A DNA stretch of 64,000 bases from Candidatus Levyibacteriota bacterium. Lineage in GTDB: Bacteria; Patescibacteriota; Microgenomatia; Levybacterales; UBA12049. The position numbers and the translations under genes are program-made. The number at the start of each line of letters is the position of its first letter. The stretch's first letter is position 1. The notes below the pieces were generated by a model, which did not search any database, was not told the DNA's origin, and worked only from the letters and a program-made list of their open reading frames with translations. Positions 6,255 through 51,165 of this stretch are shown here, piece after piece. The DNA lies in the NCBI GenBank assembly GCA_963716145.1, contig OY970292.1:533171-597170 (forward strand), written 5' to 3'.

Positions 6255-6357
6255 CTCTATTCAGCTACGCTGAATACTAACGAACCAAGAACTGAAAACT
6301 CAGAAAGAAAATTTTCCTAGTCCTTGGTTTTTAGTTTTGAGTTCTGCTTTGCAGAAT

Positions 6358-6430
6358 GCCGAAGTGGCTCAGTGGTAGAGCAAGTCATTGGTAATGACTA
6401 GATCATGGGTTCCGATTCCCATCTTCGGCT
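6358..6430 (+). tRNA. tRNA-Thr (anticodon GGT)
   Basis: Acceptor gccgaag/cttcggc, anticodon stem agtca/tgact with loop ttggtaa. The T-loop appears to be 8 nt (ttccgatt). Confidence 0.7.
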
Positions 6431-6444
6431 CAATAATAATTCAT

Positions 6445-7650: not shown

Positions 7651-7728
7651 TAATTTATGATATCACAACTTATGCCCCGCAATATCCTTGTGGCAGTTTA
7701 ATCAGAAATATTGTATAATACATAGATT

Positions 7729-7905
7729 ATGGCGAAAAAAGGAGAACACAGAATAAAAATTGGTCTGGTTTGTCAGATTTGCAAGAATAAAAACTATGTG
7801 TCACAGAAAAATAAGATGGAGACACCTGAAAAATTGGTGCTTCATAAATTTTGTAAGCATTGCAAAAAAGTGACAGACCACAAAGAAACTGAAAAACTTA
7901 AGTAA
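7729..7905 (+). CDS. rpmG: 50S ribosomal protein L33
   Basis: 58-aa ORF, not in the track because it is under 60 aa: MAKKGEHRIKIGLVCQICKNKNYVSQKNKMETPEKLVLHKFCKHCKKVTDHKETEKLK. It has the CxxC...CxxC zinc ribbon and length typical of L33. Confidence 0.8.
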   Translation: MAKKGEHRIKIGLVCQICKNKNYVSQKNKMETPEKLVLHKFCKHCKKVTDHKETEKLK

Positions 7906-7937
7906 GATTGCGTATAGCAAATAGCTTATGGCGTATG

Positions 7938-7968
7938 GTAAGAATCCTTTCTTACTCTACGCTTTTTT
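7938..7968 (+). terminator. rho-independent terminator after rpmG
   Basis: Hairpin gtaagaa-tcctt-ttcttac followed by a T6 run. Confidence 0.5.
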
Positions 7969-8025
7969 AGTATAATGGGCTAACTATTTGCTATTAGCTA
8001 TTAGCTATGCGCTGTTAGCCAATAT

Positions 8026-8097
8026 AGGGACGTGGTGAAATGGTTATCACAGCAGTCTCCAAAACTGCTTTTCCCAGTTCGAGTCTGGGCGTCCCTG
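8026..8097 (+). tRNA. tRNA-Trp (anticodon CCA)
   Basis: Acceptor agggacg/cgtccct, D-stem gtga/tcac, anticodon loop ctccaaa, T-loop ttcgagt. Confidence 0.85.
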
Positions 8098-15200: not shown

Positions 15201-15201
15201 G

Positions 15202-16038
15202 ATGAGTAGTGCAAAAGCATTCGCGCCTGCAAATATCAGCTGCGCTTTTAAGATTTATGAGCACAAAAATCCACGCTGGGCAGGCTCACTCGGATTTGGA
15301 TTTACTCTTAAAGAAGGAATAACTGTGGAAGTTACCAAATCAAAAACAAGCAAAGTTTTTTTTAATAAAAAGCAGGTCGATTTCCCGACAATAAGACAAG
15401 TTATAAATTCTTTGACAAAAGAGAAAATAGTTGTGAATCTAACTTCTCCCCTGCCTCTTGGCTGTGGGTTTGGCTTGAGCGGAGCAAGCGCGCTGGCAGC
15501 GTCTTACGCCTTAAATAAATTGTTGAAACTTGGTAAATCCAAAAAGCAGCTGGCTATTATTGCACACGTCGCGGAGGTTGAAAATAAAACCGGTTTGGGC
15601 GATGTAACAAATCAATATTACGGAGGTTTTTTGGTGAAATTCAAGCCCAGCTCACATTTTGAAGTTATCAAAATTCCGCTTAAGGATGTTCCAATTTTCT
15701 GCCTGAGCTTTGATAAACTACCTAATAACTCCATCCTTAACAATACAAGATTAACAGCTGATATAAATAGAGAAGCAGCAGTTGCATTGGGTAAAATGCA
15801 GGACTTGCTAAAATCAGGAGAGAAAGTGGAACTTGGATATATTATCAAGCTTTCAAAAGAATTTGCAATAAAATCAGGACTGCTTACAGATAAAAAAGTA
15901 ATTGAAACTATAGAGGCTATCGAAAAAGATAGTGGTCAGGCTTCAATGATAATGCTCGGAGATGCTGTATTCAGCAATATCAATTTCCCCGGCGCAAAGA
16001 GATTAACAATATCAGACCAGGGAGCGTATGTAATATAA
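15202..16038 (+). CDS. GHMP-family small-molecule kinase (candidate pantoate kinase)
   Basis: GHMP motif II PLGCGFGLSGASALAASYA and an N-terminal APANISCAF motif. 278 aa, overlapping the coaBC stop. Confidence 0.5.
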   Translation: MSSAKAFAPANISCAFKIYEHKNPRWAGSLGFGFTLKEGITVEVTKSKTSKVFFNKKQVDFPTIRQVINSLTKEKIVVNLTSPLPLGCGFGLSGASALAASYALNKLLKLGKSKKQLAIIAHVAEVENKTGLGDVTNQYYGGFLVKFKPSSHFEVIKIPLKDVPIFCLSFDKLPNNSILNNTRLTADINREAAVALGKMQDLLKSGEKVELGYIIKLSKEFAIKSGLLTDKKVIETIEAIEKDSGQASMIMLGDAVFSNINFPGAKRLTISDQGAYVI

Positions 16039-16064
16039 AAGCTTATCTATTCGTAAATATAATT

Positions 16065-16263
16065 TTGTGTGAGCATTCAAACAAGCGCGTTTACCCCGCT
16101 AAGCGGGGTTAAGAAATTGTGAATGAATTGTCAGGGGGAATCCGGCTCGAAGCTGAAAGCTGAGTGGCCGAAGGGGGCGGACAATCCCCCGACAATGAAT
16201 GAAACAATTTTAGCGCGACTTTGCAGCTCACAAGCTTTTGGTTCTTTTGTCGACACAAAAGAA
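16065..16263 (+). repeat. copy A of a conserved structured element (candidate small RNA)
   Basis: About 80% identity to 53549-53711 with two indels, and a compensated terminal hairpin (gttcttttgt-cgac-acaaaagaac). A TATAAT box sits at 16056-16061 just upstream. A long-range helix pairs ttgtcaggggg with cccccgacaa. Confidence 0.55.
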
Positions 16264-16293
16264 CAACCACAATCTGCTATAATCCATCTATTC

Positions 16294-17802
16294 ATGAAAC
16301 GGCAAATTTCAGCAACCATGGCCACGCAGCATCCTGACCATGCAGGTGTACCTTACTGGCATGACCGGGAATTCATAAGAACCAGTTACGAGTCGCACGA
16401 AACATTTGAGGCATTTTCTGAGCTTGGAATTCGCGAGTATAAATGGGACTGGGAGGGCAAACTTGTTGATGAATCGGTGCTTGAAAGATTGTTTGGGGAG
16501 CATTTTGAATTCTTTAAAAAAAACCCCTTGGGACAAAAAACATTTTTGACATTCAGACTCCCAAATCCCAAAGTCGAGACCGAATTCCGAATAGGTCGTG
16601 CTTTTATGAACCTAGCAAGTGCCGCAAGTGTCGCAAAGCATTTCGGGCTCCCTACTCCCCCGCTTTTTGAAGTGATTCTCCCCATGACCACATCAGCTGA
16701 GGAGATCTTTGAGATTCAAGTTGCCTATCAGCAAATTCACGCACTCACCCATCCTTTGTATCGCTTGAATAGTATTCTGACCAATCCCCGCATCATCCCA
16801 TTGTTTGAAGATGTTGAGACAATAATTAACTCTGACAAAATAATCGAAAAGTACATAAATCTTTATAAAAAACGGTTTAAAAAGACACCTCCATATATCC
16901 GCCCGTACGTTGCACGGAGTGATCCGGCTTTGAATTTCGGAATGGTACCTACAGTCTTTGCCATAAAAATTGCGCTATCAAGGTACGCAAAGTTGTCTAA
17001 GAAACTCAGGATTCCTTTTTATCCGATCATCGGAGCAGCTGTTCTTCCCTTCCGTGGAGGGATAGATCCAACGCGTATTGAGAAATTCGCTGATGAATAC
17101 AGAGGAATCCGCACAACCACAATTCAAAGTGCTTTCAGGTATGATTTTCCCAAAAAAGACGTTATAAAAGCCATAAAATATCTTGAAAAGACCCTCCCAC
17201 AACAAAAAGCGGAAATCATCCCAGCTAGCGAAGAAAATGAAATGATCAAGCTCATACCTTACTTTGAAAGTTCGTATCGCGAAACAATCGAAAAAATTGC
17301 ACCAGTAATAAATACTATTTCGGGTTTTTTACCCAGGCGCCGCGAAAGAGTCCAGCACATCGGACTTTTTGGATATTCAAGAGGAGTTGGTAAAGTAAAG
17401 CTACCGCGAGCAATTGGATTCACCGCAGCCCTTTATTCAATCGGCGTGCCTCCTGAATTCATAGGGACAGGAAGAGGCATAAAGCAAGCTAAAAAACTAG
17501 GTAAATTGGCAATCGTAAAAAAATATTATAAATATGTTTCAGAAGATCTGGATCAAGCAGGCAGATATCTAAATACTGATAATTTGAATAAACTGAGCAA
17601 GAAATCAAACGCTTGGAAAAAAGTATTGGAAGACATAAAGGCGGTCGAAGAAACATTGGGGATAAAACTCAGACCCATAACAAAAGAGGAAAAAGAACAC
17701 AAAAAACTTACTGATAAAATTTATGCGCAGCTGGATTCAGGAGACGTAATGCTCACCGAGCTAATCACCAAAGCCGCAATTCTCCGGAAAAGTTTGGGAT
17801 AA
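16294..17802 (+). CDS. archaeal-type phosphoenolpyruvate carboxylase (PepcA family)
   Basis: N-terminal MATQHPDHAG motif, GYSRGVGK (analogue of the classical GYSDSGK), and a C-terminal Gly. The start is moved to an in-frame ATG downstream of the repeat element; the track start at 16123 lies inside that element. Confidence 0.7.
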   Translation: MKRQISATMATQHPDHAGVPYWHDREFIRTSYESHETFEAFSELGIREYKWDWEGKLVDESVLERLFGEHFEFFKKNPLGQKTFLTFRLPNPKVETEFRIGRAFMNLASAASVAKHFGLPTPPLFEVILPMTTSAEEIFEIQVAYQQIHALTHPLYRLNSILTNPRIIPLFEDVETIINSDKIIEKYINLYKKRFKKTPPYIRPYVARSDPALNFGMVPTVFAIKIALSRYAKLSKKLRIPFYPIIGAAVLPFRGGIDPTRIEKFADEYRGIRTTTIQSAFRYDFPKKDVIKAIKYLEKTLPQQKAEIIPASEENEMIKLIPYFESSYRETIEKIAPVINTISGFLPRRRERVQHIGLFGYSRGVGKVKLPRAIGFTAALYSIGVPPEFIGTGRGIKQAKKLGKLAIVKKYYKYVSEDLDQAGRYLNTDNLNKLSKKSNAWKKVLEDIKAVEETLGIKLRPITKEEKEHKKLTDKIYAQLDSGDVMLTELITKAAILRKSLG

Positions 17803-31803: not shown

Positions 31804-32685
31804 CTAGATCTTTAACTCTTTGAGGAATTTGCGAAAATCCGTACTGATATCTTCATGCTCCAGAGCAAACTGAACAACAGTCTTCATGTATTCCAATTTA
31901 TTCCCCGTATCATAATACTGACCATTTTCAATCTCACACGCATAGACCGGATAGCCTGTTTTGATAAGCTGATCAATTGCCTCAGGTAAATAAATTTCTC
32001 CACCTGTCCCCGGCTTTTGATTCTTCAGGATTCCAAAAATATCAGGAGGAAGAATGTATGCTCCGTGTGTCGCTAGATTGGACGGCGCCTTGTCAGGATG
32101 CGGTTTCTCAACTATTTTTTTGATTTTAAAAACATTCCCCTCGACCTCCTCAACCTCAGCAATTCCGTATCTTTTTAGATCCTCTTTATTCTCAATCCGA
32201 ACGCCGGATATCACAGCGCCGCCGAATTTTTCATGAACTTCCATCATCTGGGCAAGCCTGGGAGGAGTACTGTATATAAACTCATCTCCCCAAAGTACCG
32301 CAAAAAACTCATTATCAATAACGGGCTCTGCTGAAAGAACCGGAGTGCCGTTACCATACATTCCCTTTTGACGGATATAGATAAAATTGGCCATTTCGGA
32401 AATGGCTCTAGTATGAGCAAGAAGTTTGTCTTTGCCTCCGGCTTGCAGATTTTTGATAAGATCAGCATTGGGCGCGTCAAAATGATCTTCAATCGCCCGC
32501 TTAAGAGATCCGGTCACGATAATAATGTCTTCTACCCCTGAAGCAACTGCCTCTTCAACCACATATTGGATGACAGGCTTATCAACAATCGGGAGCATTT
32601 CCTTGGGCATCGCCTTTGTCTGAGGCAGGAACCGTGTCCCAAACCCGGCAGCGGGAATAACAGCTTTGCGGATCTTTTTTCGCAT
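31804..32685 (-). CDS. galU: UTP--glucose-1-phosphate uridylyltransferase
   Basis: AVIPAAGFGTRFLP.TKAMPKEMLPIVDKP motif. 293 aa. Confidence 0.85.
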   Translation of the reverse strand: MRKKIRKAVIPAAGFGTRFLPQTKAMPKEMLPIVDKPVIQYVVEEAVASGVEDIIIVTGSLKRAIEDHFDAPNADLIKNLQAGGKDKLLAHTRAISEMANFIYIRQKGMYGNGTPVLSAEPVIDNEFFAVLWGDEFIYSTPPRLAQMMEVHEKFGGAVISGVRIENKEDLKRYGIAEVEEVEGNVFKIKKIVEKPHPDKAPSNLATHGAYILPPDIFGILKNQKPGTGGEIYLPEAIDQLIKTGYPVYACEIENGQYYDTGNKLEYMKTVVQFALEHEDISTDFRKFLKELKI

Positions 32686-37750: not shown

Positions 37751-38385
37751 ATGCAACGTCCATCCATCCGCCGAGGATTCGTGGCCGCTTTGGTCGCAAT
37801 TGGGATCGGTCTTACCACCGCCCCCGCCCCGGCGCTCGCCGACAACACCGACGTCAACGCCATCGTCGCCCAGGCCCGTGCCGACGCCACCACCCGTGTG
37901 GAAGCCGCTCTCGCAGCAGCCAACGCTCGTGTCGCAACCGTCGCCGCCCCGGCCCAGGCCGCCGACAACAACATCACGGCCACCCCGGCCAGCACCACCT
38001 CGGAGGCAACCGCCACCGAGTCCACCTACCAGGCACCCGCCGACACCGGCAACGCCAACAGCGGCACCGTCGAGGTCGCACCTGACCCCGTCGTCGCTTC
38101 GGCACCCGTCGTCGTCGAGGCAGCAGCTGTCGCTGTGGAGGCGCCGCCCCCGCCCCGGCCCTTGCCGTTTCGGCGCCTGTCGCACCCCTGGACTTCAACA
38201 TCCAGAACCCTGCCCAACCGGGGCAGAGGGTGCGCTTCGTGCGTTCCGAGGACGGGTCGTTCAGCGTGATCGCCACCAACAGGACCGGTTCGAACCAGTC
38301 CGCCCGCGTGTTCGCAGACCCCGTCTCGATCGGGATCGGCGTCCGCAACGGGAGCAAGAACTTCACCGGCGTCTTCAGCAGGTAG
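37751..38385 (+). pseudogene. high-GC (about 70%) Actinobacteria-like Ala/Pro-rich secreted protein gene, frameshifted
   Basis: AAGGAG ribosome-binding site 7 nt before the ATG. Signal peptide MQRPSIRRGFVAALVAIGIGLTTAPAPALA. GCC/GAC/ACC/GTC codon usage. The frame breaks in a C-run at about 38140-38165 and continues in another frame (DFNIQNPAQPGQRVRFVRSEDGSFSVIATN...) to the TAG at 38383-38385. Confidence 0.5.
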
Positions 38386-38958
38386 TCGCTTCACCAGGTG
38401 ATGCATCAAGGAAGGTTGACGGAATTTCTGTCTCAGGCCTCGGCTTGACTCAAGAGCTCGTCAGCTCCCCGCGATGCATCGCCTTTAGCTTTTAGCTTGC
38501 AAGGATGATCGTCCTCCTCCCTAGTTGGGAACTTTTTATGTGCCTAAAAAGCGCTAGTTCCCAACAGGGAGGGTGGATTCACTGATGTGGATTTTTCCTC
38601 GTAGAGGAGACATTTTCACATTTGTGATATTTTATTTTTTACGCGTTGCGGCTAAGCTGTTTCTGAGCAATTCGCGCTCCTTTTCACCGCTTACCGCGTA
38701 CCGTTACCCTATCCACCCTCCCTACTTCTATTTTGAGCCCCAATCAGACTTGGCGAAGCCTCGTTTGACGCGGGACTTAGAATAAAAGTATTTCATTATC
38801 TCAAAAATTACTCCTAAGCTCTGATTTATAACCACCATCTACTATCAGTACTTTGTTCCCGTTTGTAATTATTCTTATTTGCTTCTTAGCTGAAGATTTT
38901 TGACGTAGAAAAAACACCTTCATTGACATATAAGCTCCCCTATTTGTATAGTTAAATT

Positions 38959-39816
38959 GTGAGCAAAAAGTTTCTTCTAAACATTCTTACTGTTTCCATT
39001 TTATTTGTATCTGGTACCTTTTTGGTCTGGGCAGCAGCTAGCCCGAATGGGTGCGGAGGTAATGGCGGTACAGCCGGAGGCGTAGGCACCAAAGGATGCG
39101 ATAGCAGCTTCACAGGTTATAAAGGCGGCAACCCAGGCTCAGCAGGAGGAGGAAATGGGAATCCCGGTGGTAATGGATCTAATTTATCTGGGGATGCTGG
39201 TCAATATGGTGCTGGTGGGGGTGGGGGTGGAGGCGGAAGTGCTGGCGTTCGCGGTGGAAATGGAGGAATTGGTGGAAATTTTAATAACTTAGACGGTTTG
39301 GAGAGCGCTTCAGGCAACGGAGGACACGGAGGCTCGGGCGGTGCCTCTACTACCAATAGCGTCAGCGGTGGTGATGGTGGAACTGGAGGATTGGGAGGCA
39401 TTCTACAAAACGATAGCAACACCGGTAGCATAGGCGGAACGGGGGGTAATGGAGGGAAGGGAGGAGATACAGGCACAAGCGGGAGCGGAGCGGGTGTTGC
39501 CGGTGGTGCTGGAGGCGCCGGGGGAAATGGAGGAAATGTGTCAAAAGATACAGGGTTTGGTGTTACTACTTGGGGTAAGGGAGGAACTGGTGGCGTTGGG
39601 GGAAATGGAGGCGCTGGAGGCGATGCAAATGTGTCTGGGAACGGTGGTAATGGTGGTATAGGGGGAAAAGGAGGAAATGGTGGGAACGGAAAGACAAGTG
39701 GAGTTGGCTCCAACGGTGGGGTGGGGGGAAGTGGAGGAGATAGTTTTAGAGGGATTGGAGGAAACGGAGGAACCGGTGGAAATGGTGGCACTGGCTCAAC
39801 TGCAGGTACCCGGTAG
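38959..39816 (+). CDS. N-terminal segment of a giant surface protein: signal peptide plus Gly-rich (GGNGG/GGAGG) repeats
   Basis: TM or signal sequence MSKKFLLNILTVSILFVSGTFLVWA, then about 260 aa of GGxGG repeats. The Gly tract continues in other frames to about 40600. Confidence 0.5.
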   Translation: MSKKFLLNILTVSILFVSGTFLVWAAASPNGCGGNGGTAGGVGTKGCDSSFTGYKGGNPGSAGGGNGNPGGNGSNLSGDAGQYGAGGGGGGGGSAGVRGGNGGIGGNFNNLDGLESASGNGGHGGSGGASTTNSVSGGDGGTGGLGGILQNDSNTGSIGGTGGNGGKGGDTGTSGSGAGVAGGAGGAGGNGGNVSKDTGFGVTTWGKGGTGGVGGNGGAGGDANVSGNGGNGGIGGKGGNGGNGKTSGVGSNGGVGGSGGDSFRGIGGNGGTGGNGGTGSTAGTR

Positions 39817-40640
39817 CCCTGGCGGTGCCGGAGGAGAAGGTTGCGGTGGGCCCGGAGCAGTTGGTTCTCCCGCCTCAGGAAGTACCGGCGGTGCCGGAGG
39901 AGCTGGAGGACCAGTGTGTCTAAGCGGTGGTGCAGGTGGCACGGGTGGTATAAATGGCGGTGCCAGGAGGAGCTGGAGGACCAAAAAACGGCGCTGCCGG
40001 TGGCGCGGGTGGTACAGCCGGTGGAGGCGGTGGAGGCACGGGTCAACTTATAATTATGGGCGGAGGAGGTTCTACAAATTATGCTTATGGAGGAGGAGGT
40101 GGTGGAGGAGGCGCAGGGTACCAATGGTCTAGCTGGCGGTAAGGGTGGAAATGGTGGAGGTATGATAGTAGGTGGAGGAAGTTCTCTCAATTATATGGCA
40201 ACCGGGTCGGGTGGAGATGGAGGAGATGGAGGACATAATTCCAATGGTCCCGGTGGCAAAGGTGGAGACGGCGGGAGTGGTGGAGGTATAATAGGAGGTG
40301 GAGGAGGTTCTGTAAATCATGTATATCGTGGAGATGGGGGTAATGGCGGAAAAGGCGGGAACGGCACAGCCGGTCAGCCGGGTGGTGCTGGAGGAAATGG
40401 TGGATTTAGAAGTGGATACATTGTCGGCGGTGGAGGTAGCTCAAACTATTTTCATGTGGATGGAACTGATGGTGTAGGTGGTGCGGGAGGTGCTGGGTGC
40501 GGTGGCTTTGGTCAGCCTGCATCAGGCTCAACAGGTGGGGCTGGTGGCCCAGGATGCGAGGCGACCAACAGCAGCTTGCAGCAGCGGAAATGTCACCTGG
40601 AGTTGGACCGCCAGTACGAGTAGTCCCTCAACCCCAAATG
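39817..40640 (+). pseudogene. Gly-repeat region of the same gene, broken by at least 3 single-nt frameshifts
   Basis: Gly-rich translation hops between frames, for example ggtgccGgaggagct versus ggtgccAggaggagct at about 39965. The motif SPASGSTGGAGG(A)GGP(V)C recurs. Confidence 0.45.
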
Positions 40641-42265
40641 CACGACTTCAAGTTTTTGATAGCGCTGGAACAACTCTGTTATATGACAGTAACTCTGCTA
40701 TTGGTTCACCAAGAACCACCATTGGATTACCAGGAACTACCTTTAAAGGTCAAGTTAGCTACAACGGAACCAATCTTTACTCCGCACAAACCACTATTAC
40801 TTGCGCCGCAACACCAACATACTCCCTAACAGGCAGTATTTTTATCGATAGCAATGGAAATAATCTGAAAGATCCCGGAGAAAACCCTTACAATAGCTCC
40901 CAATTAAATGTCAGATTACGCAGTGGAGGCTCTACCTGGGATCAGGGCAACACTCCCGCTAACTATAATTATACCGGCCGTTCAGCCGGCGCGTATACCT
41001 TTGAGTTTTTATCGGCTATTCCGGCAGGATACACGCTGGGTCACCCCCCTGGTCCTCCATACCAGTATTCAGTTACTCTAGGTGCGGGATGCACGGCAAG
41101 CCCGCTGCCTCCCGGCAGTCCTGCCATCTGTGACGGATCAAATAACATAGTTGGTCTTAACTTTCCTCTTCAGGTTGTAGTCAGTCGTGTAACCACCACA
41201 ACTCTTTCTTCCTCACTCAATCCATCAACTGTCGGGCAAAATGTCACATTTACTTCAAATGTCAGTGGGGCTTGCGGGCCTACAGGAAATGTAGAATTTC
41301 TTGATGGGGCAGCAGTTATGGCAACAAGAGCATTGGCCGGAGCAACAGCCACATACTCAACTACCACCTTAACTGTCGGAAGTCACAATATTACGGCACG
41401 ATATACTGGCAATGCAGCTTGTGATCCAAGCACTTCCCCGGTTGTGGTCCAAACAATAAATCCCCCACCAAATCAAGCACCTACCATAAGCAACGCGACT
41501 ATTTCGCCCAAACCAATAACCGCAAATGGTTCAACACAATACGCAATAACCCTCACAGCAACCGACCCGAATGGCGGAAATGATATTGGAGCAGAATACA
41601 CAATCATCAACTATCAGGGCCCAAACGCAGGAGCTGGAAACTACCGAGGATATCTTGGATGGTCCACTCTGGGAGCTTCTCCGCCTCCTTATTCTTATCC
41701 CTACTGGACCTCTTCCATTTCTCCAAAACCCTGCGCGCCAGGTGGTGGCCAAGCGGCTGTCAATACCAGCGATGGCGCCACATGGGGACATCAATACATT
41801 AATTTGATAAGCTGTTCTACCGCAGTCGCGGGCAACATCAGGACAGTAACTTTTATTGTGACATTTAATAGTAACTTTACTGCGCCTACTAACAACAATA
41901 CTCTTTCCGGATATGTCCGGGATTGGGGAGGATTGGAAGATACTCCTATTATGAAACCATTTGACACGTTCAATTTGGCGCCGCCTGCAACTTACACAAT
42001 TTCAGGCAGTGTTTTTACTGATATAAGCGGAAATAAGATTAAAGATGGCAGTGAAATAGACTATCCAAGCTCTCCGGGCATAACAAAAAGCCCTGCCGGC
42101 GGAACTGTTACCAATAATGCAAACGGAACTTATAGCATTACTGGATTGTCTGCCGGAACTTACACTGTCTCCTATGGATCTGTCCCCGCAGGATACAATA
42201 TTGTTCATCCCCAAACAGGTCCGCCTCCCCAATTCTCAGTTACGGTTGGCCCGGATGCAGCGTGA
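40560..42265 (+). CDS. central part of the giant surface protein: SdrD-B / Cna-B-like and bacterial Ig-like (Big_3-like) domains
   Basis: Two SGS(I/V)F(I/T)D.NGN.IKD.GE motifs. Ig-like pattern TTTLSSSLNPSTVGQNVTFTSNVSG...GSHNITARYTGNAACDPSTS. The frame ends at the TGA at 42263. Confidence 0.55.
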
Positions 42266-43215
42266 ACCCCACTCCCCCAACAGCGGCCATAGCCTGTGAT
42301 GCTTCGCAAAACATTTCCGGCCTTAACTTCGCGATCAGTAATTCGTCTCCTTGGATACAGGGCTATGACTTGGATATGCGCTTTGATTATGGCTTTAATG
42401 ATGCTATCCCAGGCGGGACTCCATATACTCCCTACGCCTCAGTATTTGACACTTTTAGCAATACTCCTGGAGTTATTTTTTCAGGAGATAGCTCTTACAG
42501 CTTTGGATCGGGCCAAGCATCAATTACTAGGAGTGTTGTTGGGGGCACAACCTATCCTGAAGTTTTTAACTTCCCATCAGGCAACCCTCTGCACACAAGT
42601 TATGGATACTTATCAGGCAATGCCGCGAGTGCCGGAATAACTCCCAGAGATATGGCAGGAAATGATACTTCGGGAAATTCGGTCTGCAGCGGCGGCGGCA
42701 TTGGTAATTGCACTATCCATCCGAATTTACTAAAAGGTGTTTACGGCGCAAATGGAAATGTAAAAATAAACACATCTTCTCTAAAGGCTGCCAGCAATTA
42801 TATTTTCCTCATAAACGGAACTCTAACTATAAATGGAAATATAACTATTCCTACAACCTCAACAGCTCTTTTTACATCAAGCAGCAACATCATAATTGAC
42901 AAGTCCGTTGGAGCAGCAAGTAATTCATTCCCCCGTCCCACGGGACAATTGCAGGGATTCTATAGCGCTGACAATTCTTTTACTATCCAGGGAAACAATA
43001 ATTGCTCTCTCGGAATTGATAAAATGTTAAACATTGAAGGTTCTGTAGTTGTGAATGCCAACGGCACGGGAGGATCTGTTGTGAATCAGCGCAATCTTTG
43101 CGGTGATAATGCCACTATTCCTTCTCTTACGATCGCTCCCCGTCTTGATTTTATTCTCAATGCTCCATCATTTCTGATGGTACCTGATGTTATCTCCAAT
43201 GAAGTCGCACCATAG
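42262..43215 (+). CDS. C-terminal part of the giant surface protein (beta-helix-like repeats)
   Basis: Starts by repeating the PxxPxAAIACDxSxNIxGLNF motif seen upstream. Separated from the previous segment by a -1 frame shift. Confidence 0.45.
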   Translation: MNPTPPTAAIACDASQNISGLNFAISNSSPWIQGYDLDMRFDYGFNDAIPGGTPYTPYASVFDTFSNTPGVIFSGDSSYSFGSGQASITRSVVGGTTYPEVFNFPSGNPLHTSYGYLSGNAASAGITPRDMAGNDTSGNSVCSGGGIGNCTIHPNLLKGVYGANGNVKINTSSLKAASNYIFLINGTLTINGNITIPTTSTALFTSSSNIIIDKSVGAASNSFPRPTGQLQGFYSADNSFTIQGNNNCSLGIDKMLNIEGSVVVNANGTGGSVVNQRNLCGDNATIPSLTIAPRLDFILNAPSFLMVPDVISNEVAP

Positions 43216-46516: not shown

Positions 46517-46726
46517 ATGAATAATCAAAAGCTATCAATAGATAACCTTCCAGATCTACTTACAGTCCGTGAAGTTGCTGAAGTTCTCCGTGTCTCCCCT
46601 CTTACTATCAAAAGATGGGGTAAAAGAGGAAAGCTTCCGGCAATAAGAATAAACTCACGAGGAGATAGAAGATACAAAAAAGAAGCAGTCCTCTGGCTCC
46701 TCGGCATCCAACCAAAAACTGAATAA
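46517..46726 (+). CDS. excisionase-family / MerR-like helix-turn-helix DNA-binding protein
   Basis: LLTVREVAEVLRVSPLTIKRWGKRGKLPAIRI..GDRRYKKEAV. Confidence 0.6.
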   Translation: MNNQKLSIDNLPDLLTVREVAEVLRVSPLTIKRWGKRGKLPAIRINSRGDRRYKKEAVLWLLGIQPKTE

Positions 46727-46741
46727 AGTCCTCCTATTTAC

Positions 46742-48196
46742 ATGATGACTCATGAATTTGCCAGAAGACATGCCCCTCAAGAACCTCACGACTCGGAGAC
46801 ACTGAGGAAAAAAACCTTCCATATCGAGTCAGGAAATCGACTGCGTGGAGAAGTTAATCCCGGAGGATCAAAAAATGGAGCTATTCCTATCATGTGGGCA
46901 GCTACGCTCTGCAATACTCCTTCAACTATTAGAGGATTGCCTGCGCTTGGAGATACCACAATAAACATGAAGTTGCTCAGGGCATTTGGCGTAAATGTAA
47001 TCCCAGACGGAGATGTTACAACCATCGACCCGCAAAATGTCACAACCGGAACTGCCATAAGAAAAAATATCGAATCTTCAAGAAATAGTATTCTGACAGT
47101 TGGAGCTATGTTAGGGCGTCTCGGGCATGTTACCATCCCTCACCCAGGCGGTGATGCACTGGGACCCAGACCAATTGATTATCACATAAAAGTAATGGAG
47201 GCCCTAGGAGCAAAATTCAAAGAAGATGCTGACGGCATGCAGTTTGAAGCGCTTGATGGATTAAAAGGAGGCTATTATAAATTCCCCCAACCTAGCCATT
47301 TGGGAACAATAAACGGCTTGCTTGCGGCAGTAAATGCAGACGGCTCAACCACGCTTAAAAACTGCGCATTAGAACCTGAAGTTGAAGAATTTATCGATTT
47401 TTTGACAAAGGCAGGAGCAAGAATTAAAAGAGATGGTTTGGACCCCCGAACTATCTTGATTGAGGGAGTACGCGAATTGAATGGTGTTGAGGATTTTGAA
47501 ATATTGCCCGATAGAAATGCGATAGTTACCTACGCAGTTGCTGCTATAGCTACCGAATCTGAGGAAGGAGTCACTGTAAAAGGAGCGAAAAAGGTGCATT
47601 TGAAATCATTTCTATCTTTGCTTGATGAAATGGGAGGCGGATACAAAATTCCAGATGACGAGAACGAGGACTGGATAAGATTTTTCTATAAAGGAGAATT
47701 GACTGCACCAAAACGCACTATAGTAACTTGCCCGTATCCCAATGACCAATTTGGTAATGAAAATTACCTTGGCATAATGACTGACTGGCAGCCGCTTGTA
47801 AGCTTATTACTCTTAAAAGCAAAAGGTACTTCAAGAATTATCGAAGCAGTACATCCTGATCGGTTCCAACACTTAAATAGTGCTTCTTCTGCAGGAGCAA
47901 ATATAGAATTTTTTGATCCAAAAATAGAAGATCCTGAATTGGGGTACTTTTTTAGAGATGAATTCGACAAAAAAAATCACGGAGCGGTCATTACCGGTGG
48001 AACGCTTTTCAGTAAGGAAATTCCAACCTCTGAAAGTGATGATGTAAGGCTAAGCGCGTTTAATATGATTGCGGGACTTTCGCTGACCCAACCGGGAGTA
48101 ACCACTATCATGCACAGCCCGCTGCACCTGGAAAGAGGCTATGAAGATCTTACTGGAAAACTCCAATCTCTCGGCGCTAATATTTTAGCGGCTTAA
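46742..48196 (+). CDS. murA: UDP-N-acetylglucosamine 1-carboxyvinyltransferase-like enzyme (MurA/EPT family) with Asp at the fosfomycin-target position
   Basis: Aligns with E. coli MurA end to end (KNGAIPIMWAATL... HLERGYEDLTGKLQSLGANI). The active-site loop reads PGGDALGPRPIDYH where E. coli has PGGCTIGARPVDLH. Confidence 0.8.
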   Translation: MMTHEFARRHAPQEPHDSETLRKKTFHIESGNRLRGEVNPGGSKNGAIPIMWAATLCNTPSTIRGLPALGDTTINMKLLRAFGVNVIPDGDVTTIDPQNVTTGTAIRKNIESSRNSILTVGAMLGRLGHVTIPHPGGDALGPRPIDYHIKVMEALGAKFKEDADGMQFEALDGLKGGYYKFPQPSHLGTINGLLAAVNADGSTTLKNCALEPEVEEFIDFLTKAGARIKRDGLDPRTILIEGVRELNGVEDFEILPDRNAIVTYAVAAIATESEEGVTVKGAKKVHLKSFLSLLDEMGGGYKIPDDENEDWIRFFYKGELTAPKRTIVTCPYPNDQFGNENYLGIMTDWQPLVSLLLLKAKGTSRIIEAVHPDRFQHLNSASSAGANIEFFDPKIEDPELGYFFRDEFDKKNHGAVITGGTLFSKEIPTSESDDVRLSAFNMIAGLSLTQPGVTTIMHSPLHLERGYEDLTGKLQSLGANILAA

Positions 48197-48318
48197 ATAT
48201 ATAACGCCACGAAGAAAATAAAACATTAAATTACTACGTTGGGTTAAATTCGTCTTTGAAAGCTAAGGTAGGTGTACCACATTATTGAAAATGATTGCAG
48301 AGTGGTATAATTAGATTC

Positions 48319-48579
48319 ATGAATAGCGACTACATTTCTCTGATAGGTTTTGCGGCGGCGACTTTGACTACTGCCTCTTTTTTACCACAGGTGGTTCAAA
48401 CTCTGAAAACCCGTAAAACAAAAGACATTTCACTGGGTATGTATATCGCTTTCACGATTGGGATTACTCTCTGGGGAATTTACGGTTTTCTTATCGGGTC
48501 CCCACCTATTATCATCGCCAACATCATAACTTTTGTTCTGACTTGCATTATTCTATATCTCAAAATCAAACATGGCTGA
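48319..48579 (+). CDS. SemiSWEET (MtN3/PQ-loop) sugar transporter
   Basis: 86 aa, three TM segments, PQ motif (SFLPQVVQTLKTRKTKDISLGMY). TATAAT at 48305-48310 suggests a near-leaderless transcript. Confidence 0.6.
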   Translation: MNSDYISLIGFAAATLTTASFLPQVVQTLKTRKTKDISLGMYIAFTIGITLWGIYGFLIGSPPIIIANIITFVLTCIILYLKIKHG

Positions 48580-49648
48580 TGACTATCAACAAGTAAAGCA
48601 AAACTTTTTTTCAGAGCTCAAAGCCGCCTCAAACAATAAAAAAAGCAGTCTCTCATACATAAAAAATGACCTTTCTCAAAAACCTCTTGTAGAAAATGGT
48701 ATTGTTCAGGTGATAGTAGTGGGCGGGACAAATTATATTTCCTCATTAGTCAAAGTGGTAAACGGAAAAAATCAGAGTCTGAGTATTGAAAAAGGTAAGT
48801 TGCCTATCTTCAAAACACGTAAAGATTTTTCTCTATTTCTGGATAAAACTCTAAGCAAAGATGCTGAGGCTTTAGGAATCAATTTCGCCTTTCCGCTCTT
48901 GCCCACTACCGGACTTCTGGGAGCGCTTGACGGGATACTTATAAAAGTCACCAAGGAGCACAAATTTATTGGACTTATCGGAAAGCGTGTCGGGGAATTT
49001 GCCGGAAAACAGTATTTTAAAAAATATAAAAACTTTATACCCGTTACAGTTGCCAACGATACAGTCTGCCTCACTCTTTCGGACCAAGGAGAAGCGGATG
49101 GCGGAATGGTCTTGGGGACTGGATTTAACATGAGTTTGAAAACAAGCGGAAAAGCCAAAAAAACGATAATCAATTTAGAAGCCGGCAATTTTAATGGTTT
49201 TGAGATATCCGATACTCTTAAAAAAATTGATGAGATATCTGAAAAACCGGGAAATATGCTGTTTGAAAAAGCTGTTGCCGGTAAATACCTTGTGGAGGAT
49301 TTTAATGAGCAGGCAAAAGCGTTAGGGACAAACTTCGCTTTAAAAACAACCGAAGATTTGTCCCATCTTGCGAAAACAAACCATAAGGCTGAGGGTGATT
49401 TGGCGCAATCAGTTCTGAAAAGGTCAGCATTTTTTATCGCAGGGGCCCTTGCCGGAGTTTATGAATTCAGAAACCGTCCCACCAAACTTGAATTCGTTAC
49501 AGAAGGTAGTTTGTTCTGGAAAGGATATAAATATCAAGAAAATGTACAGAAACAATTAATCGGGCTAGGAGTGCCCAAAAACGCAATAAGATTTAAATAC
49601 GTAGAAGACAGCAGCCTAAAAGGCGCGGTAGGTTTATTGATTAAATAA
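48572..49648 (+). CDS. hexokinase-family sugar kinase
   Basis: VIVVGGTNYISSLV (matches LDLGGTNFRV), LGINFAFPLLPT, VTVANDTV. These follow the order of the hexokinase signature motifs. Confidence 0.55.
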   Translation: MADDYQQVKQNFFSELKAASNNKKSSLSYIKNDLSQKPLVENGIVQVIVVGGTNYISSLVKVVNGKNQSLSIEKGKLPIFKTRKDFSLFLDKTLSKDAEALGINFAFPLLPTTGLLGALDGILIKVTKEHKFIGLIGKRVGEFAGKQYFKKYKNFIPVTVANDTVCLTLSDQGEADGGMVLGTGFNMSLKTSGKAKKTIINLEAGNFNGFEISDTLKKIDEISEKPGNMLFEKAVAGKYLVEDFNEQAKALGTNFALKTTEDLSHLAKTNHKAEGDLAQSVLKRSAFFIAGALAGVYEFRNRPTKLEFVTEGSLFWKGYKYQENVQKQLIGLGVPKNAIRFKYVEDSSLKGAVGLLIK

Positions 49649-50133: not shown

Positions 50134-51165
50134 TTATCTTCTCATGATCCGGCTCCAGAAATGTTCCTTGATAAACCCAAACGTTTCCGCAGGGTCTTGC
50201 GTATTAACAATAATATTTGTACCCAATTCAAATCCGCCGATGATTTTAACTCTTGGAATCAAGCGCAAATACCAGTTTTTGCCGGGATAAATATAGAAAT
50301 TAAATGGAAATTCATGACCGTGACGCAGATCAAAAATTTGTATCAATCGAGACAAAACAAAGCTCAAATCGGTAATTTCTTCATCTTTGATGAATCCAAA
50401 CCCTCCACCGTTCTGCTTTGGTGCTATCCATGCTTCGTCCGGCCAATCACTCGTTGCGGGGCAGAAGATCAGGAAATGCTCCGTTTCCAATTTTCCATCG
50501 TCCATGTTCCACTTTCCATTTATTTCTTTATTGGACAATTTGGAAATTGAAGATTGCAAATCATTGGAAAATGGTAAATGGGAAATGGAAGATCTATTTG
50601 CTGAATCTTTTTCATAAATAGCCTGATCCAACGGAGTTATATCCAACTTAATATTGTGCGGAATCACCACCAGTTGCGTATGCGGATGTCCAAGGCTTGC
50701 GCCCGCGGATGAGCCCGAATTGTGAAAAATATAAACCCGCCCGCCCTTTTTGTGAGTATTAAACCTCTGCTTGTAAGTTTGCAGTATCAACTCAACAGCT
50801 GATAAAGGCAATTCATCAAAGCTCTTGTGATGATCCGGGGAATGAATTACAACCTCATGATTCGGAGCAAAAGGAAATTTGTTGGCTACTACTCTAACAA
50901 GCCAATTTGAGTCTTTCGGAAAACTCTGAACACTCGGTTCGCCGGATGTATCTGACGGTCTGACAATCTGAACGTCTGACCCTCCGGCTTTCTGAGGATT
51001 CTGAGTATTCTGAATTCTATAAAGTTCTTCCTCGGCAATTTCATTTCCCGGACAAAAAGGGCAAATATCCACGGCTTTTTCAACATTTGTACGATGCGAG
51101 CGCCTGGGAGCAGAAACCACCCATTTGCCGTTAATTTTATTCTGTAAAAATTTGAAATCAGCCAT
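50134..51165 (-). CDS. galT: galactose-1-phosphate uridylyltransferase (HIT family)
   Basis: Zn-binding CPFCPGNE and HPH motif (GHPHTQLVVIPH). Confidence 0.75.
   Translation of the reverse strand: MADFKFLQNKINGKWVVSAPRRSHRTNVEKAVDICPFCPGNEIAEEELYRIQNTQNPQKAGGSDVQIVRPSDTSGEPSVQSFPKDSNWLVRVVANKFPFAPNHEVVIHSPDHHKSFDELPLSAVELILQTYKQRFNTHKKGGRVYIFHNSGSSAGASLGHPHTQLVVIPHNIKLDITPLDQAIYEKDSANRSSISHLPFSNDLQSSISKLSNKEINGKWNMDDGKLETEHFLIFCPATSDWPDEAWIAPKQNGGGFGFIKDEEITDLSFVLSRLIQIFDLRHGHEFPFNFYIYPGKNWYLRLIPRVKIIGGFELGTNIIVNTQDPAETFGFIKEHFWSRIMRR

What the first reader, a model, noticed from the sequence alone, without database searches (positions are those of the whole stretch)
48295..49648. SemiSWEET transporter paired with a eukaryote-type hexokinase-family kinase
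An 86-aa three-TM PQ-loop SemiSWEET sits immediately upstream of, and 8 nt overlapping, a 358-aa hexokinase-family kinase. Both families are uncommon in bacteria. Together they form a minimal uptake-and-phosphorylation unit for a hexose. galT and galU are nearby.
Basis: partly seen in the sequence, partly recalled or inferred. Interest (0 to 1): 0.55.

Follow-up and report, generated by a model that had tools for sequence, protein, structure and literature searches.

The report
SemiSWEET sugar channel plus compact hexokinase operon
An ultrasmall (CPR/Microgenomates-type) bacterium carries a two-gene unit, a tiny SemiSWEET sugar channel whose stop codon overlaps the start of a compact hexokinase-family gene, which most likely lets a hexose diffuse in and traps it by phosphorylation; the kinase belongs to a large subfamily that lacks a normally conserved magnesium-site aspartate.

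Summary
An 86-aa SemiSWEET (48319..48579) overlaps by 8 nt a 358-aa hexokinase-family gene (48572..49648). The HMM assignments hold. SemiSWEET_2 scores 110 bits against a cutoff of 80, and Hexokinase_1 and Hexokinase_2 both pass Pfam gathering. There is no ROK or BadF hit. The AlphaFold model (pLDDT 96.9) matches only eukaryotic hexokinases and glucokinases.

The pair recurs with a 4- or 8-nt overlap in eight loci of one Microgenomates sublineage. In the seven with DNA it has its own promoter-like box 6-7 nt before the ATG, which implies a leaderless bicistronic mRNA.

Three qualifications apply:
- The pairing is lineage-restricted. 22 other related loci lack the SemiSWEET. There the hexokinase follows a hyper-conserved BldC-like HTH gene and, in most of them, two DUF5671 membrane genes.
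- The kinase belongs to a compact subfamily of at least 563 clusters. This subfamily keeps the sugar site, the catalytic base, PHOSPHATE 2 and ADENOSINE. It lacks the PHOSPHATE-1 Asp (V49) and the canonical Arg and Ser.
- The "galU" gene is 15.6 kb away, and the "galT" resembles ADP-glucose phosphorylase.

Best reading: facilitated hexose uptake with metabolic trapping. I rate it a new variant of a known kind, of moderate interest.

The parts
48285..48311 (+). Promoter-like element. TTGAAA, a 15-nt spacer, then TGgTATAAT (extended -10). The -10 ends 7 nt before the SemiSWEET ATG, which implies a leaderless transcript.
   Evidence: Read from the sequence. A -10-like hexamer (TATAAT, GATAAT, AATAAT or CATAAT) ends 6-7 nt upstream of the ATG in 7 of 7 SemiSWEET-hexokinase loci. 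In the six related loci a TTGnnn lies 17 nt further up. Background: 3 of 50 long ORFs in the window have such a hexamer at that position. The generic promoter scan did not list it because it requires a 16-18 nt spacer. No transcript data.
48319..48579 (+). SemiSWEET gene: 86 aa, a 3-TM PQ-loop uniporter protomer.
   Evidence: NCBIfam SemiSWEET_2 110 bits against cutoff 80. Pfam PQ-loop and MtN3_slv above gathering. Aligns end to end with solved SemiSWEETs 9kax, 4qnc, 4rng and 4x5m at E 1.6e-22 to 5.8e-13. The PQ motif (P22-Q23), W51 and N67 are present.
48572..48579 (+). 8-nt stop/start overlap (ATGGCTGA), a sign of translational coupling.
   Evidence: The junction is ATGGGTGA in L036, ATGGCTGA in L001, and a 4-nt ATGA in L012, L015, L039 and L040.
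48572..49648 (+). Compact hexokinase-family gene, 358 aa, from the subfamily that lacks the PHOSPHATE-1 Asp.
   Evidence: Pfam Hexokinase_2 62 bits and Hexokinase_1 27.8 bits. AF2 model pLDDT 96.9, pTM 0.93. The top 50 Foldseek PDB hits are all hexokinases or glucokinases, TMq 0.70-0.82. Residue mapping to human HK1 comes from the alignment.
50134..51165 (-). GalT-like HIT-family nucleotidyltransferase or phosphorylase. It is a convergent neighbour conserved with the hexokinase in this sublineage. This is context; a functional link is not shown.
   Evidence: Pfam GalP_UDP_transf 37.6 bits. The best solved relative is 1z84, an Arabidopsis GalT-like protein, at E 1.2e-20. It is syntenic in L001, L010, L012, L015 and L036-L040. 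The HPHTQ motif is visible in the translation.
46517..46726 (+). 69-aa excisionase/BldC-like HTH gene. It is the most constant upstream neighbour of the hexokinase across the wider family. This is context; it may be a regulator.
   Evidence: Pfam HTH_17 and MerR_1. NCBIfam excise domain 36.3 bits against cutoff 28.8, and BldC 45 bits, below its cutoff of 77. It is 88-98% identical in 24 of 30 related loci, always upstream on the same strand. Its 90%-identity cluster has 938 members.

Best explanation
The two genes form a self-contained bicistronic unit for hexose capture.

**Proposed mechanism.**
- A promoter directly abuts the SemiSWEET ATG, so the mRNA is leaderless.
- The hexokinase start codon overlaps the SemiSWEET stop codon, so the two proteins are made together.
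- The SemiSWEET would dimerise into a small uniporter. It would let a hexose, most likely glucose or a close analogue such as mannose, fructose or glucosamine, equilibrate across the membrane.
- The compact hexokinase-fold enzyme would phosphorylate the sugar at O6. That keeps the inward gradient and traps the sugar for glycolysis, the pentose-phosphate shunt or cell-envelope precursor synthesis.

**Shown.**
- Family membership of both proteins.
- Intact sugar pockets in both.
- The catalytic base, PHOSPHATE-2 and ADENOSINE motifs in the kinase.
- Conserved adjacency, conserved overlap and a conserved promoter-like box.

**Inferred.**
- The substrate.
- The direction of transport.
- That the kinase is catalytically active with ATP despite lacking the PHOSPHATE-1 aspartate.
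- Leaderless transcription.

**Evolutionary reading.**
- The hexokinase is an old, syntenic gene of this Microgenomates lineage.
- The SemiSWEET was placed in front of it in one sublineage and then inherited vertically.
For: **SemiSWEET.**
- HMM hits are above curated cutoffs.
- It matches the Leptospira, Bradyrhizobium-like, Thermodesulfovibrio and E. coli SemiSWEET structures at E 1e-22 to 6e-13, with the PQ motif, pocket Trp and pocket Asn aligned.

**Kinase.**
- Pfam Hexokinase_1 and Hexokinase_2 pass gathering, and the fold match is to hexokinases only.
- By the HK1 alignment:

| This protein | Human HK1 | Conservation in 78 family members |
|---|---|---|
| T127 / K128 | T620 / K621 | K128 97% |
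| N162 / D163 | N656 / D657 | 99% / 100% |
| G182-T183-G184 | G679-T680-G681 | 100% / 92% / 100% |
| N186 | N683 | 99% |
| E203 | E708 | 100% |
| E232 | E742 | 99% |
| G312 (ADENOSINE) | not mapped | 100% |

**Pairing.**
- The pair occurs in the window, L001, L012, L015, L036, L039, L040 and the contig of P0125.
- Upstream genes differ between these loci: murA, PAS, PA14, Big_7, DUF5671.
- The overlap is 4 or 8 nt in all seven loci with DNA.
- In each pair the SemiSWEET is more conserved than the kinase. For example, L036 has 87% against 63% identity.
- The -10 box lies 6-7 nt before the ATG in 7 of 7 loci, against 3 of 50 background ORFs.

**Composition and literature.**
- GC content of both genes matches the genome: 0.40 and 0.39 against 0.415.
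- Hexokinase and glucokinase are rare in CPR bacteria. [quoted passage not shown]
Against: - The whole subfamily lacks the PHOSPHATE-1 Asp. HK1 D532 corresponds to V49, and no Asp occurs there in 78 aligned members. A regex survey of 132 further cluster representatives also found no Asp, and one Glu that may be a mis-hit.
- The subfamily also lacks the canonical Arg (HK1 R539 corresponds to I56, a variable position) and Ser (HK1 S603 corresponds to A106, Ala or Gly in all members).
- PHOSPHATE 1 normally holds Mg2+ through water molecules (PMC1079889). ATP-dependent activity is therefore not assured.
- Most relatives of the kinase have no SemiSWEET next to them.
- Three close SemiSWEET homologues elsewhere have no kinase neighbour.
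- Some characterised SemiSWEETs carry sucrose rather than hexose. This is from my own knowledge (Xuan et al. 2013) and is quoted in PMC5972207.
- There are no expression or biochemical data.
- The rest of the genome could not be inspected for pgi, pgm, PTS or other sugar transporters.
Confidence: 0.62

Rival explanations
1. The hexokinase-fold protein still binds hexose but is not a conventional ATP/Mg2+ hexokinase. It may use a different phosphoryl donor or a rebuilt metal site, with the family-specific invariant residues Q46, N104 and C166 taking over. Alternatively it may be a weakly active or inactive sugar sensor. In this reading the SemiSWEET supplies its ligand.
For: - The PHOSPHATE-1 Asp, the Arg of GGTNxR and the Ser of FSFP are replaced across the whole family.
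- New invariant residues appear next to these positions: Q46 94%, N104 97%, C166 97%.
- Canonical bacterial hexokinases in the same alignment keep DLGGTNYR.
- PHOSPHATE 1 is the Mg2+-water motif of ASKHA kinases (PMC1079889).
Against: - The catalytic base D163, the GTG PHOSPHATE-2 loop (T183 is 92% Thr, the rest Ser) and the ADENOSINE glycine G312 are essentially invariant. A pure binding protein would not obviously need to keep them.
- The family is single-copy and syntenic in genomes where hexokinase/glucokinase is otherwise rare (PMC7304191).
- No coordinates were available, so it could not be tested whether Q46 or N104 reach the phosphate site.
Confidence: 0.2
2. The adjacency is inherited gene order without a shared pathway. 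The SemiSWEET carries another solute, for example sucrose or another small metabolite, or it exports sugar. The kinase acts on internally generated hexose, for example from glycan or glycogen turnover.
For: - The pair is confined to one sublineage that also shares downstream synteny (the galT-like gene and a 757-aa protein), so vertical inheritance alone could explain its recurrence.
- SemiSWEET gene contexts across prokaryotes are very diverse, and their physiological substrates are unknown (PMC5972207).
- SemiSWEETs are bidirectional uniporters (my own knowledge).
Against: - The stop/start overlap and the promoter box placed directly before the SemiSWEET ATG persist across hexokinase divergence down to 47% identity, while the upstream genes are shuffled.
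- The SemiSWEET is under stronger constraint than the kinase.
- Its closest solved relative with measured transport, the Leptospira SemiSWEET 4qnc, is a glucose carrier (my own knowledge, Xu et al. 2014).
Confidence: 0.13
3. The unit salvages an amino sugar or other hexose for cell-envelope synthesis rather than for energy metabolism. For example, glucosamine would be converted to GlcN-6-P and then to UDP-GlcNAc.
For: - The neighbourhood is rich in envelope genes: murA-like directly upstream, a WecG/TagA glycosyltransferase, MreB and a PEGA protein downstream, and a galT-like nucleotidyltransferase.
- Hexokinases commonly accept glucosamine (my own knowledge).
Against: - murA is upstream only in this genome. 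The other loci have unrelated genes there.
- All canonical glucose-contacting residues are kept, which does not discriminate between glucose and glucosamine.
Confidence: 0.05

Closest known systems
SemiSWEET transporters with solved structures: Leptospira biflexa 4QNC, Thermodesulfovibrio yellowstonii 4RNG, E. coli 4X5M, and 9KAX
   Same: - 86 aa with three TM helices.
- PQ motif, pocket Trp (W51) and pocket Asn (N67) all align.
- The match is end to end at E 1.6e-22 to 5.8e-13.
- NCBIfam SemiSWEET_2 scores above its cutoff.
   Different: - Nothing structural differs.
- The genomic context is new. It sits in a CPR-type genome, is translationally coupled to a hexokinase-family gene, and appears to be on a leaderless mRNA.
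- Published SemiSWEET context surveys list glycosidases, sugar-synthesis genes and others, but no sugar kinase (PMC5972207).
Hexokinase family (Pfam PF00349 / PF03727): eukaryotic hexokinases and glucokinases, and Bacteroidetes-type bacterial hexokinases of about 400 aa
   Same: - The two-domain hexokinase fold, TMq 0.70-0.82.
- The sugar-binding residues: T/K, N/D, N, E, E.
- The catalytic Asp, the GTG PHOSPHATE-2 loop and the ADENOSINE glycine.
   Different: - About 90-100 residues shorter.
- 18-23% identical to eukaryotic and 26-27% to Bacteroidetes-type enzymes.
- The DLGGTNxR motif is replaced by (V/I)(V/I)GG(T/S)xx: no Asp, and the canonical Arg position is variable.
- The Ser of FSFP is Ala or Gly.
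- New invariant residues Q46, N104 and C166 appear.
Zymomonas mobilis glf-zwf-edd-glk operon: a facilitated-diffusion glucose carrier co-transcribed with a glucokinase (from my own knowledge, Barnell et al. 1990)
   Same: The logic is the same. An energy-independent uniporter is co-expressed with the kinase that traps the sugar.
   Different: - The protein families are unrelated: MFS Glf and a Glk-type glucokinase, against SemiSWEET and a hexokinase-family enzyme.
- Here there are only two genes, and they are translationally coupled.
Hexokinase/glucokinase of CPR bacteria as surveyed by Jaffe et al. 2020 (PMC7304191)
   Same: That paper reports hexokinase/glucokinase as rare and patchy in CPR. 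[quoted passage not shown] This gene fits that description.
   Different: That survey did not describe the linked SemiSWEET, the conserved synteny (rplJ-rplL-HTH-DUF5671-hexokinase) or the missing PHOSPHATE-1 Asp.

Membership tests
SemiSWEET (PQ-loop / MtN3_slv; NCBIfam NF037968 SemiSWEET_2) | Profile match above curated cutoffs | tested here: met
   NF037968 scores 110 bits against a cutoff of 80. PF04193 scores 40.8 bits (gathering 22) and PF03083 scores 36.2 bits (gathering 23.7).
SemiSWEET (PQ-loop / MtN3_slv; NCBIfam NF037968 SemiSWEET_2) | A single triple-helix bundle of about 80-100 aa, half of a SWEET | tested here: met
   The protein is 86 aa. Residues 5-86 align to residues 5-86 of 9kax, and residues 7-86 to residues 3-82 of 4qnc, without gaps.
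SemiSWEET (PQ-loop / MtN3_slv; NCBIfam NF037968 SemiSWEET_2) | PQ hinge motif in TM1, and the pocket Trp and Asn (roles known from the Leptospira and E. coli structures, my own knowledge) | tested here: met
   P22-Q23, W51 and N67 are identical in the alignments to 4qnc and 9kax. They are kept in the homologues from L012, L015 and L036.
SemiSWEET (PQ-loop / MtN3_slv; NCBIfam NF037968 SemiSWEET_2) | Homodimeric sugar uniport activity | not testable with these tools
   Needs a transport assay.
Hexokinase family (PF00349 + PF03727; EC 2.7.1.1-type ASKHA sugar kinases) | Profile match above Pfam gathering for both domains | tested here: met
   Hexokinase_2 scores 62.0 bits (gathering 24). Hexokinase_1 scores 27.8 bits (gathering 24.3) and covers only profile positions 114-198. 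No NCBIfam model matches.
Hexokinase family (PF00349 + PF03727; EC 2.7.1.1-type ASKHA sugar kinases) | Hexokinase two-domain fold | tested here: met
   The AF2 model has pLDDT 96.9. The top 50 Foldseek PDB matches are all hexokinases or glucokinases, at E 5e-23 to 9e-21.
Hexokinase family (PF00349 + PF03727; EC 2.7.1.1-type ASKHA sugar kinases) | Hexose-binding residues and the catalytic base (HK1 T620, K621, N656, D657, N683, E708, E742) | tested here: met
   The corresponding residues are T127, K128, N162, D163, N186, E203 and E232, by the alignment. The six of these tabulated (T127 was not) are 97-100% conserved in 78 family members.
Hexokinase family (PF00349 + PF03727; EC 2.7.1.1-type ASKHA sugar kinases) | PHOSPHATE 1 motif DxGG(T/S), whose Asp holds Mg2+ through water (PMC1079889) | tested here: not met
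   - The GGT is kept but the Asp is V49.
- Among the 78 aligned members this position is V 66, S 4, I 2, T 2, A 2 and others, never Asp or Glu.
- A regex survey of 132 further cluster representatives found no Asp there, and one Glu that may be a mis-hit.
- The 11 Bacteroidetes-type controls in the same alignment all have Asp.
Hexokinase family (PF00349 + PF03727; EC 2.7.1.1-type ASKHA sugar kinases) | PHOSPHATE 2 (GTG) and ADENOSINE (xDGS / xEGS) motifs | tested here: met
   G182-T183-G184 are conserved 100%, 92% and 100%. E311-G312-S313 are conserved 92%, 100% and 97%.
Hexokinase family (PF00349 + PF03727; EC 2.7.1.1-type ASKHA sugar kinases) | ATP:hexose 6-phosphotransferase activity | not testable with these tools
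   Needs an enzyme assay. Because PHOSPHATE 1 fails, I file the protein as a member of the hexokinase sequence and fold family, but not as a proven canonical hexokinase enzyme.
   No such hit appears at E <= 0.01. As a contrast, a true ROK-like gene lies just after the hexokinase in L002, L008, L014 and L026, with PF00480 at 44 bits.
Leloir-pathway cluster (galK-galT-galE/galU) | A galactokinase together with GalT in the locus | tested here: not met
   - The only GHMP kinase in the window (15202..16038) is pantoate-kinase-like.
- The galT-like gene is below the NCBIfam galT cutoffs and is closest to 1z84.
- The galU-like gene is 15.6 kb away.

The most novel reading that the evidence does not exclude
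The compact hexokinases of Microgenomates may be a mechanistically distinct branch of the hexokinase fold.

- They would have rebuilt the Mg2+/gamma-phosphate site: no PHOSPHATE-1 Asp, no Arg and no Ser, with new invariant Gln, Asn and Cys. They might then use a different donor or metal arrangement.
- The SemiSWEET-hexokinase operon would be the first case in which a prokaryotic SemiSWEET has a clear physiological role, as the sole hexose entry route of an ultrasmall bacterium.
- The DUF5671 membrane-protein pair sits immediately upstream of the hexokinase in most other lineages. It could be an as yet unrecognised alternative membrane partner.
Probability: 0.15. Interest if true: 0.7.

Novelty: new variant of a known kind. 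Interest (0 to 1): 0.45.

Why it matters
- **SemiSWEET physiology.** The physiological role of prokaryotic SemiSWEETs is essentially unknown (PMC5972207). A SemiSWEET that is translationally coupled to a hexose kinase and conserved over deep divergence gives a direct prediction that is cheap to test: hexose import with metabolic trapping.
- **CPR metabolism.** How sugars enter upper glycolysis in CPR bacteria is an open point, because hexokinase/glucokinase is rare there (PMC7304191). This locus names a candidate entry route in one Microgenomates lineage.
- **Enzymology.** A family of at least 563 clusters has the hexokinase fold, an intact sugar site and an intact catalytic base, but no PHOSPHATE-1 aspartate. 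It is a useful natural experiment on what that motif is needed for.
- **Limits.** None of this overturns current understanding. It is a solid functional lead of moderate interest.

Tried and rejected
- **Genome-collection scans.** The scan with the single protein found nothing. The 34-sequence alignment was too diverse to derive search patterns. A 13-sequence alignment worked.
- **AlphaFold-database fold search.** The library was not available.
- **Literature.** Searches for "Asp532" and for the Bacteroides HexA hexokinase returned nothing useful. The roles I give for HK1 D532, R539 and S603 therefore rest on my own recollection of the mutagenesis literature, plus the general ASKHA statement in PMC1079889.
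- **Promoter and terminator scan.** The generic scan did not exceed its shuffled expectation (16 found against 12.7 +/- 3.4) and missed the box before the SemiSWEET because of its spacer limits. I relied on cross-locus conservation instead. No terminator-like site follows the hexokinase.
- **ROK/BadF reassignment.** Rejected.
- **Leloir pathway or galactokinase link.** Rejected, because the GHMP kinase in the window is pantoate-kinase-like.
- **Recent horizontal transfer of the SemiSWEET.** GC content gives no signal: 0.40 against a window mean of 0.415. An 86-aa protein is too short for a reliable tree. Non-CPR homologues at 60-65% identity interleave with CPR ones, so the origin stays open.
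- **Rfam.** The window holds only four tRNAs, and there is no riboswitch near the locus.
Full report
**1. Observation**

The ORF table shows 48295..48579 (+) with a TTG start and 94 aa, and 48572..49648 (+) with an ATG start and 358 aa. All homologues are 84-86 aa and begin at this position. The two genes overlap by 8 nt, ATGGCTGA. The gene start should be moved from 48295 to 48319.

**2. Identity of the small protein**

- Pfam PQ-loop scores 40.8 bits and MtN3_slv scores 36.2 bits, both above gathering.
- NCBIfam SemiSWEET_2 scores 110 bits against a cutoff of 80.
- The protein aligns without gaps over its whole length to solved SemiSWEETs: 9kax at 1.6e-22, 4qnc at 4e-22, 4rng at 2e-19 and 4x5m at 6e-13.
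- The PQ motif, W51 and N67 are identical to the structures in these alignments.

It is an ordinary member of the family.

**3. Identity of the kinase**

- Pfam gives only Hexokinase_2 (62 bits) and Hexokinase_1 (27.8 bits).
- An AlphaFold2 model built from 89 homologues is very confident, with pLDDT 96.9 and pTM 0.93.
- Its 50 best PDB matches are all hexokinases or glucokinases. TMq is 0.70-0.82 and sequence identity is 18-23%.
- The HMMER alignment to human hexokinase I lets residues be mapped:

| This protein | Human HK1 |
|---|---|
| T127 / K128 | T620 / K621 |
| N162 / D163 | N656 / D657 (D657 is the catalytic base) |
| G182-T183-G184 | G679-T680-G681 |
| N186 | N683 |
| E203 | E708 |
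| E232 | E742 |

Of these, every residue that tabulates (T127 is not among them) is 92-100% conserved in 78 family members, as is the ADENOSINE glycine G312.

**4. An unexpected feature of the kinase**

The PHOSPHATE-1 motif, DLGGTNFR in canonical enzymes, reads VVGGTNYI here.

- The Asp (HK1 D532) is V49.
- The Arg (HK1 R539) is I56.
- The Ser of FSFP (HK1 S603) is A106.

This is not a peculiarity of one sequence:

- Among 78 aligned relatives, position 49 is V, S, I, T or A and never Asp or Glu. Position 106 is always Ala or Gly.
- The 11 Bacteroidetes-type hexokinases in the same alignment all read DLGGTNYR and keep the Ser.
- A regex survey of 132 further representatives from the exhaustive search found no Asp at that position, and one Glu that may be a mis-hit.
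- Family-specific invariant residues appear nearby: Q46 at 94%, N104 at 97% and C166 at 97%.

PHOSPHATE 1 is the ASKHA motif that contacts Mg2+ through water (PMC1079889). DxGxT is described as conserved in related sugar kinases (PMC10465942). The protein is therefore a member of the hexokinase sequence and fold family, but it fails one defining catalytic motif. Its chemistry has to be treated as inferred.

The family is large. At least 563 clusters at 50% identity score E <= 1e-30, and almost all are 350-375 aa.

**5. Organism**

- Related contigs are labelled Candidatus Levyibacteriota, Curtissbacteria, Patescibacteria group and Saccharimonadales.
- The identical protein sits on a 1.14-Mb contig.
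- The window also has typical CPR traits, such as a 23S-rRNA-IVP four-helix-bundle gene.
- Jaffe et al. report that hexokinase/glucokinase is rare and patchy in CPR bacteria and probably anciently acquired. They predict that genomes with it could use glucose precursors taken up from outside (PMC7304191).

**6. Neighbourhood survey**

I collected 12 genome loci and 22 metagenome loci with a family alignment. I added further loci by exact protein look-ups.

The usual gene order around the hexokinase is:

rplJ, rplL, a 69-aa HTH gene, two DUF5671 membrane-protein genes, the hexokinase, a membrane protein on the other strand, a WecG/TagA glycosyltransferase, mreB, and a PEGA-domain gene.

The SemiSWEET lies directly upstream of the hexokinase in eight loci:

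- the window, L001, L012, L015, L036, L039 and L040;
- the JGI contig carrying P0125, for which no DNA was available.

Matching contig lengths suggest two more pairs, P0006/P0122 and P0017/P0124. I did not verify these.

Twenty-two other informative loci, about 18 of them distinct, lack the SemiSWEET. L039, L040 and the P0125 contig were found through the SemiSWEET search, so the ratio of loci with and without the SemiSWEET is not an unbiased frequency.

In a neighbour-joining tree, the SemiSWEET-bearing loci form two subclades. Both lie in the part of the tree that also shares a convergent galT-like gene downstream. L037 and L038 have that synteny but no SemiSWEET. The pairing is therefore a trait of one sublineage. 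It was inherited over hexokinase divergence down to 47% identity, with either two gains or some losses.

Three close SemiSWEET homologues outside the lineage have no kinase neighbour. They come from a Nitrospirota-type genome, another Patescibacteria genome and one further contig.

**7. Signs that the pair is one expression unit**

- The stop/start overlap is kept in all seven loci with DNA. It is 8 nt in the window, L036 and L001, once a single-base frameshift in the L001 SemiSWEET is allowed for. It is 4 nt (ATGA) in L012, L015, L039 and L040.
- The genes upstream of the pair differ between loci: murA here, and PAS, PA14, Big_7 or DUF5671 elsewhere.
- In all seven loci a -10-like hexamer ends 6-7 nt before the SemiSWEET ATG. 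The hexamers are TATAAT, GATAAT, AATAAT or CATAAT.
- In the six related loci a TTGnnn hexamer lies 17 nt upstream of the -10. The window instead has TTGAAA with a 15-nt spacer and a TG-extended -10.
- Only 3 of 50 long ORFs in the window have such a hexamer at that position.
- This geometry implies a leaderless mRNA that begins at or next to the AUG. That is an inference from sequence only.
- In each pair the SemiSWEET is more conserved than the kinase. In L036 it is 87% against 63%, and in L015 it is 63% against 48%.

**8. Mechanism**

The simplest reading is facilitated diffusion of a hexose through a SemiSWEET dimer, followed by phosphorylation that traps the sugar. This is the same logic as the glf-glk operon of Zymomonas mobilis or GLUT plus hexokinase in animals (my own knowledge).

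The intact hexose pocket of the kinase argues for glucose, mannose, fructose or glucosamine. It argues against a disaccharide.

The main uncertainty is the missing PHOSPHATE-1 Asp. Strict conservation of the catalytic base, PHOSPHATE 2 and ADENOSINE argues that the protein is still a phosphotransferase. I put about 0.6 on the conventional reading. I put about 0.2 on an altered donor or metal mechanism, or a sensor role.

**9.

- The galT-like gene (50134..51165, -) is real and syntenic. It is below the NCBIfam galT cutoffs.
- Its best solved relative is 1z84, the Arabidopsis GalT-like protein. From memory, that protein is an ADP-glucose phosphorylase.
- The galU-like gene is at 31804..32685 (-), 15.6 kb away.
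- The only GHMP kinase in the window is pantoate-kinase-like, not a galactokinase.
- No Leloir-pathway connection is supported.

**10. Novelty**

- SemiSWEET context surveys list many neighbours but no sugar kinase (PMC5972207).
- The top-ranked papers from a search combining SemiSWEET with CPR terms did not contain the word SemiSWEET.
- The CPR hexokinase itself is known at the annotation level. JGI labels its relatives "hexokinase".
- The window's SemiSWEET, in either its 86-aa or 94-aa form, is absent from the 15-billion-protein collection. The hexokinase, galT-like and HTH proteins of the same contig are present. It was also not among the called genes of the Logan copy. It appears to be unannotated.

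Overall this is a new variant of a known kind: a facilitator plus kinase unit built from an unusual pair of families, with an atypical kinase. Interest is 0.45.

Noticed in passing
window 46517..46726 (+): A 69-aa excisionase/BldC-like HTH protein is 88-98% identical across related loci in which the neighbouring hexokinase is only 43-65% identical. It nearly always lies upstream of the hexokinase on the same strand. Its 90%-identity cluster has 938 members, named from Levybacteria, Daviesbacteria and the Patescibacteria group. This is extreme conservation for a small regulator-like protein, and its target is unknown.
   Followed up: partly
L002 1920..3162; similar in L004-L007, L009, L011, L012, L014, L016, L019, L021, L023-L030, L033, L035: Two tandem genes for membrane proteins of about 200 aa sit immediately upstream of the hexokinase in most related loci. 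One matches DUF5671, and both fall in a single BLAST cluster. In L012 they precede the SemiSWEET. In the window and the other SemiSWEET-bearing loci they are absent from this position. Whether they are functional partners of the hexokinase is unknown.
   Followed up: partly
window 50134..51165 (-): The galT-like neighbour has the HPHTQ and CPFC motifs, but it scores below the NCBIfam galT cutoffs. Its best solved relative is 1z84, an Arabidopsis GalT-like protein at E 1.2e-20, which from memory is an ADP-glucose phosphorylase. It is a conserved convergent neighbour of the hexokinase in L001, L010, L012, L015 and L036-L040.
   Followed up: partly
L019 6155..7519; L032 495..1841; L020 1669..1974; and L002 4383..5723, L008 6769..8037, L014, L026: Some related loci carry a second, longer hexokinase paralogue of 448-454 aa directly after the first. 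It reads VYGGTGY at the PHOSPHATE-1 motif, so it too has no Asp. Other loci carry a ROK-family kinase of 420-446 aa in that position instead.
   Followed up: partly
window 48319..48579: The SemiSWEET ORF of this genome, in either its 86-aa or 94-aa form, is not in the 15-billion-protein collection. Its three neighbours from the same 1.14-Mb contig are present. It was also not called in the Logan copy, L013. It is probably an unannotated gene.
   Followed up: yes
L001 706..951: The SemiSWEET in this Levyibacteriota MAG has a single-base frameshift in an AT-rich run. The remaining C-terminus and the ATGGCTGA junction are intact in another frame. This is either an assembly error or a recent pseudogene.
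   Followed up: yes
window 13971..17802 (+): A CoaBC gene (DFP/Flavoprotein) is followed by a pantoate-kinase-like GHMP kinase (NF040725 at 152 bits, below its cutoff) and then an archaeal-type PEP carboxylase (TIGR02751 at 500 bits). These are archaeal-style enzymes in a CPR-type bacterium.
   Followed up: no
window 46742..48196 (+); L013 3391..4844: The murA-like gene is 484 aa. It passes the NF006873 subfamily cutoff but falls below the TIGR01072 equivalog cutoff. It is upstream of the pair only in this genome. The Logan copy of the same region carries a frameshift in it.
   Followed up: no
L002, L007, L008, L009 (record titles): Contigs with the same Microgenomates-type synteny and the near-identical HTH gene are deposited under the names Acidiferrales, Sulfotelmatobacter and 'uncultured Gammaproteobacteria'. 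They are probably mis-binned contigs.
   Followed up: no
window 38000..42300: G+C rises to 0.50-0.55 here against about 0.41 elsewhere. The region has many overlapping ORFs on both strands. It ends in a 595-aa protein with Big_3_5 and SdrD_B domains. I did not examine it further.
   Followed up: no
window 6001..8097 (+) and 6445..7650 (-): There are four tRNA genes, three of them clustered at 6001..6430. An MFS_1 transporter gene lies between that cluster and the fourth tRNA. Its substrate is unknown, and it could be another solute entry route.
   Followed up: no
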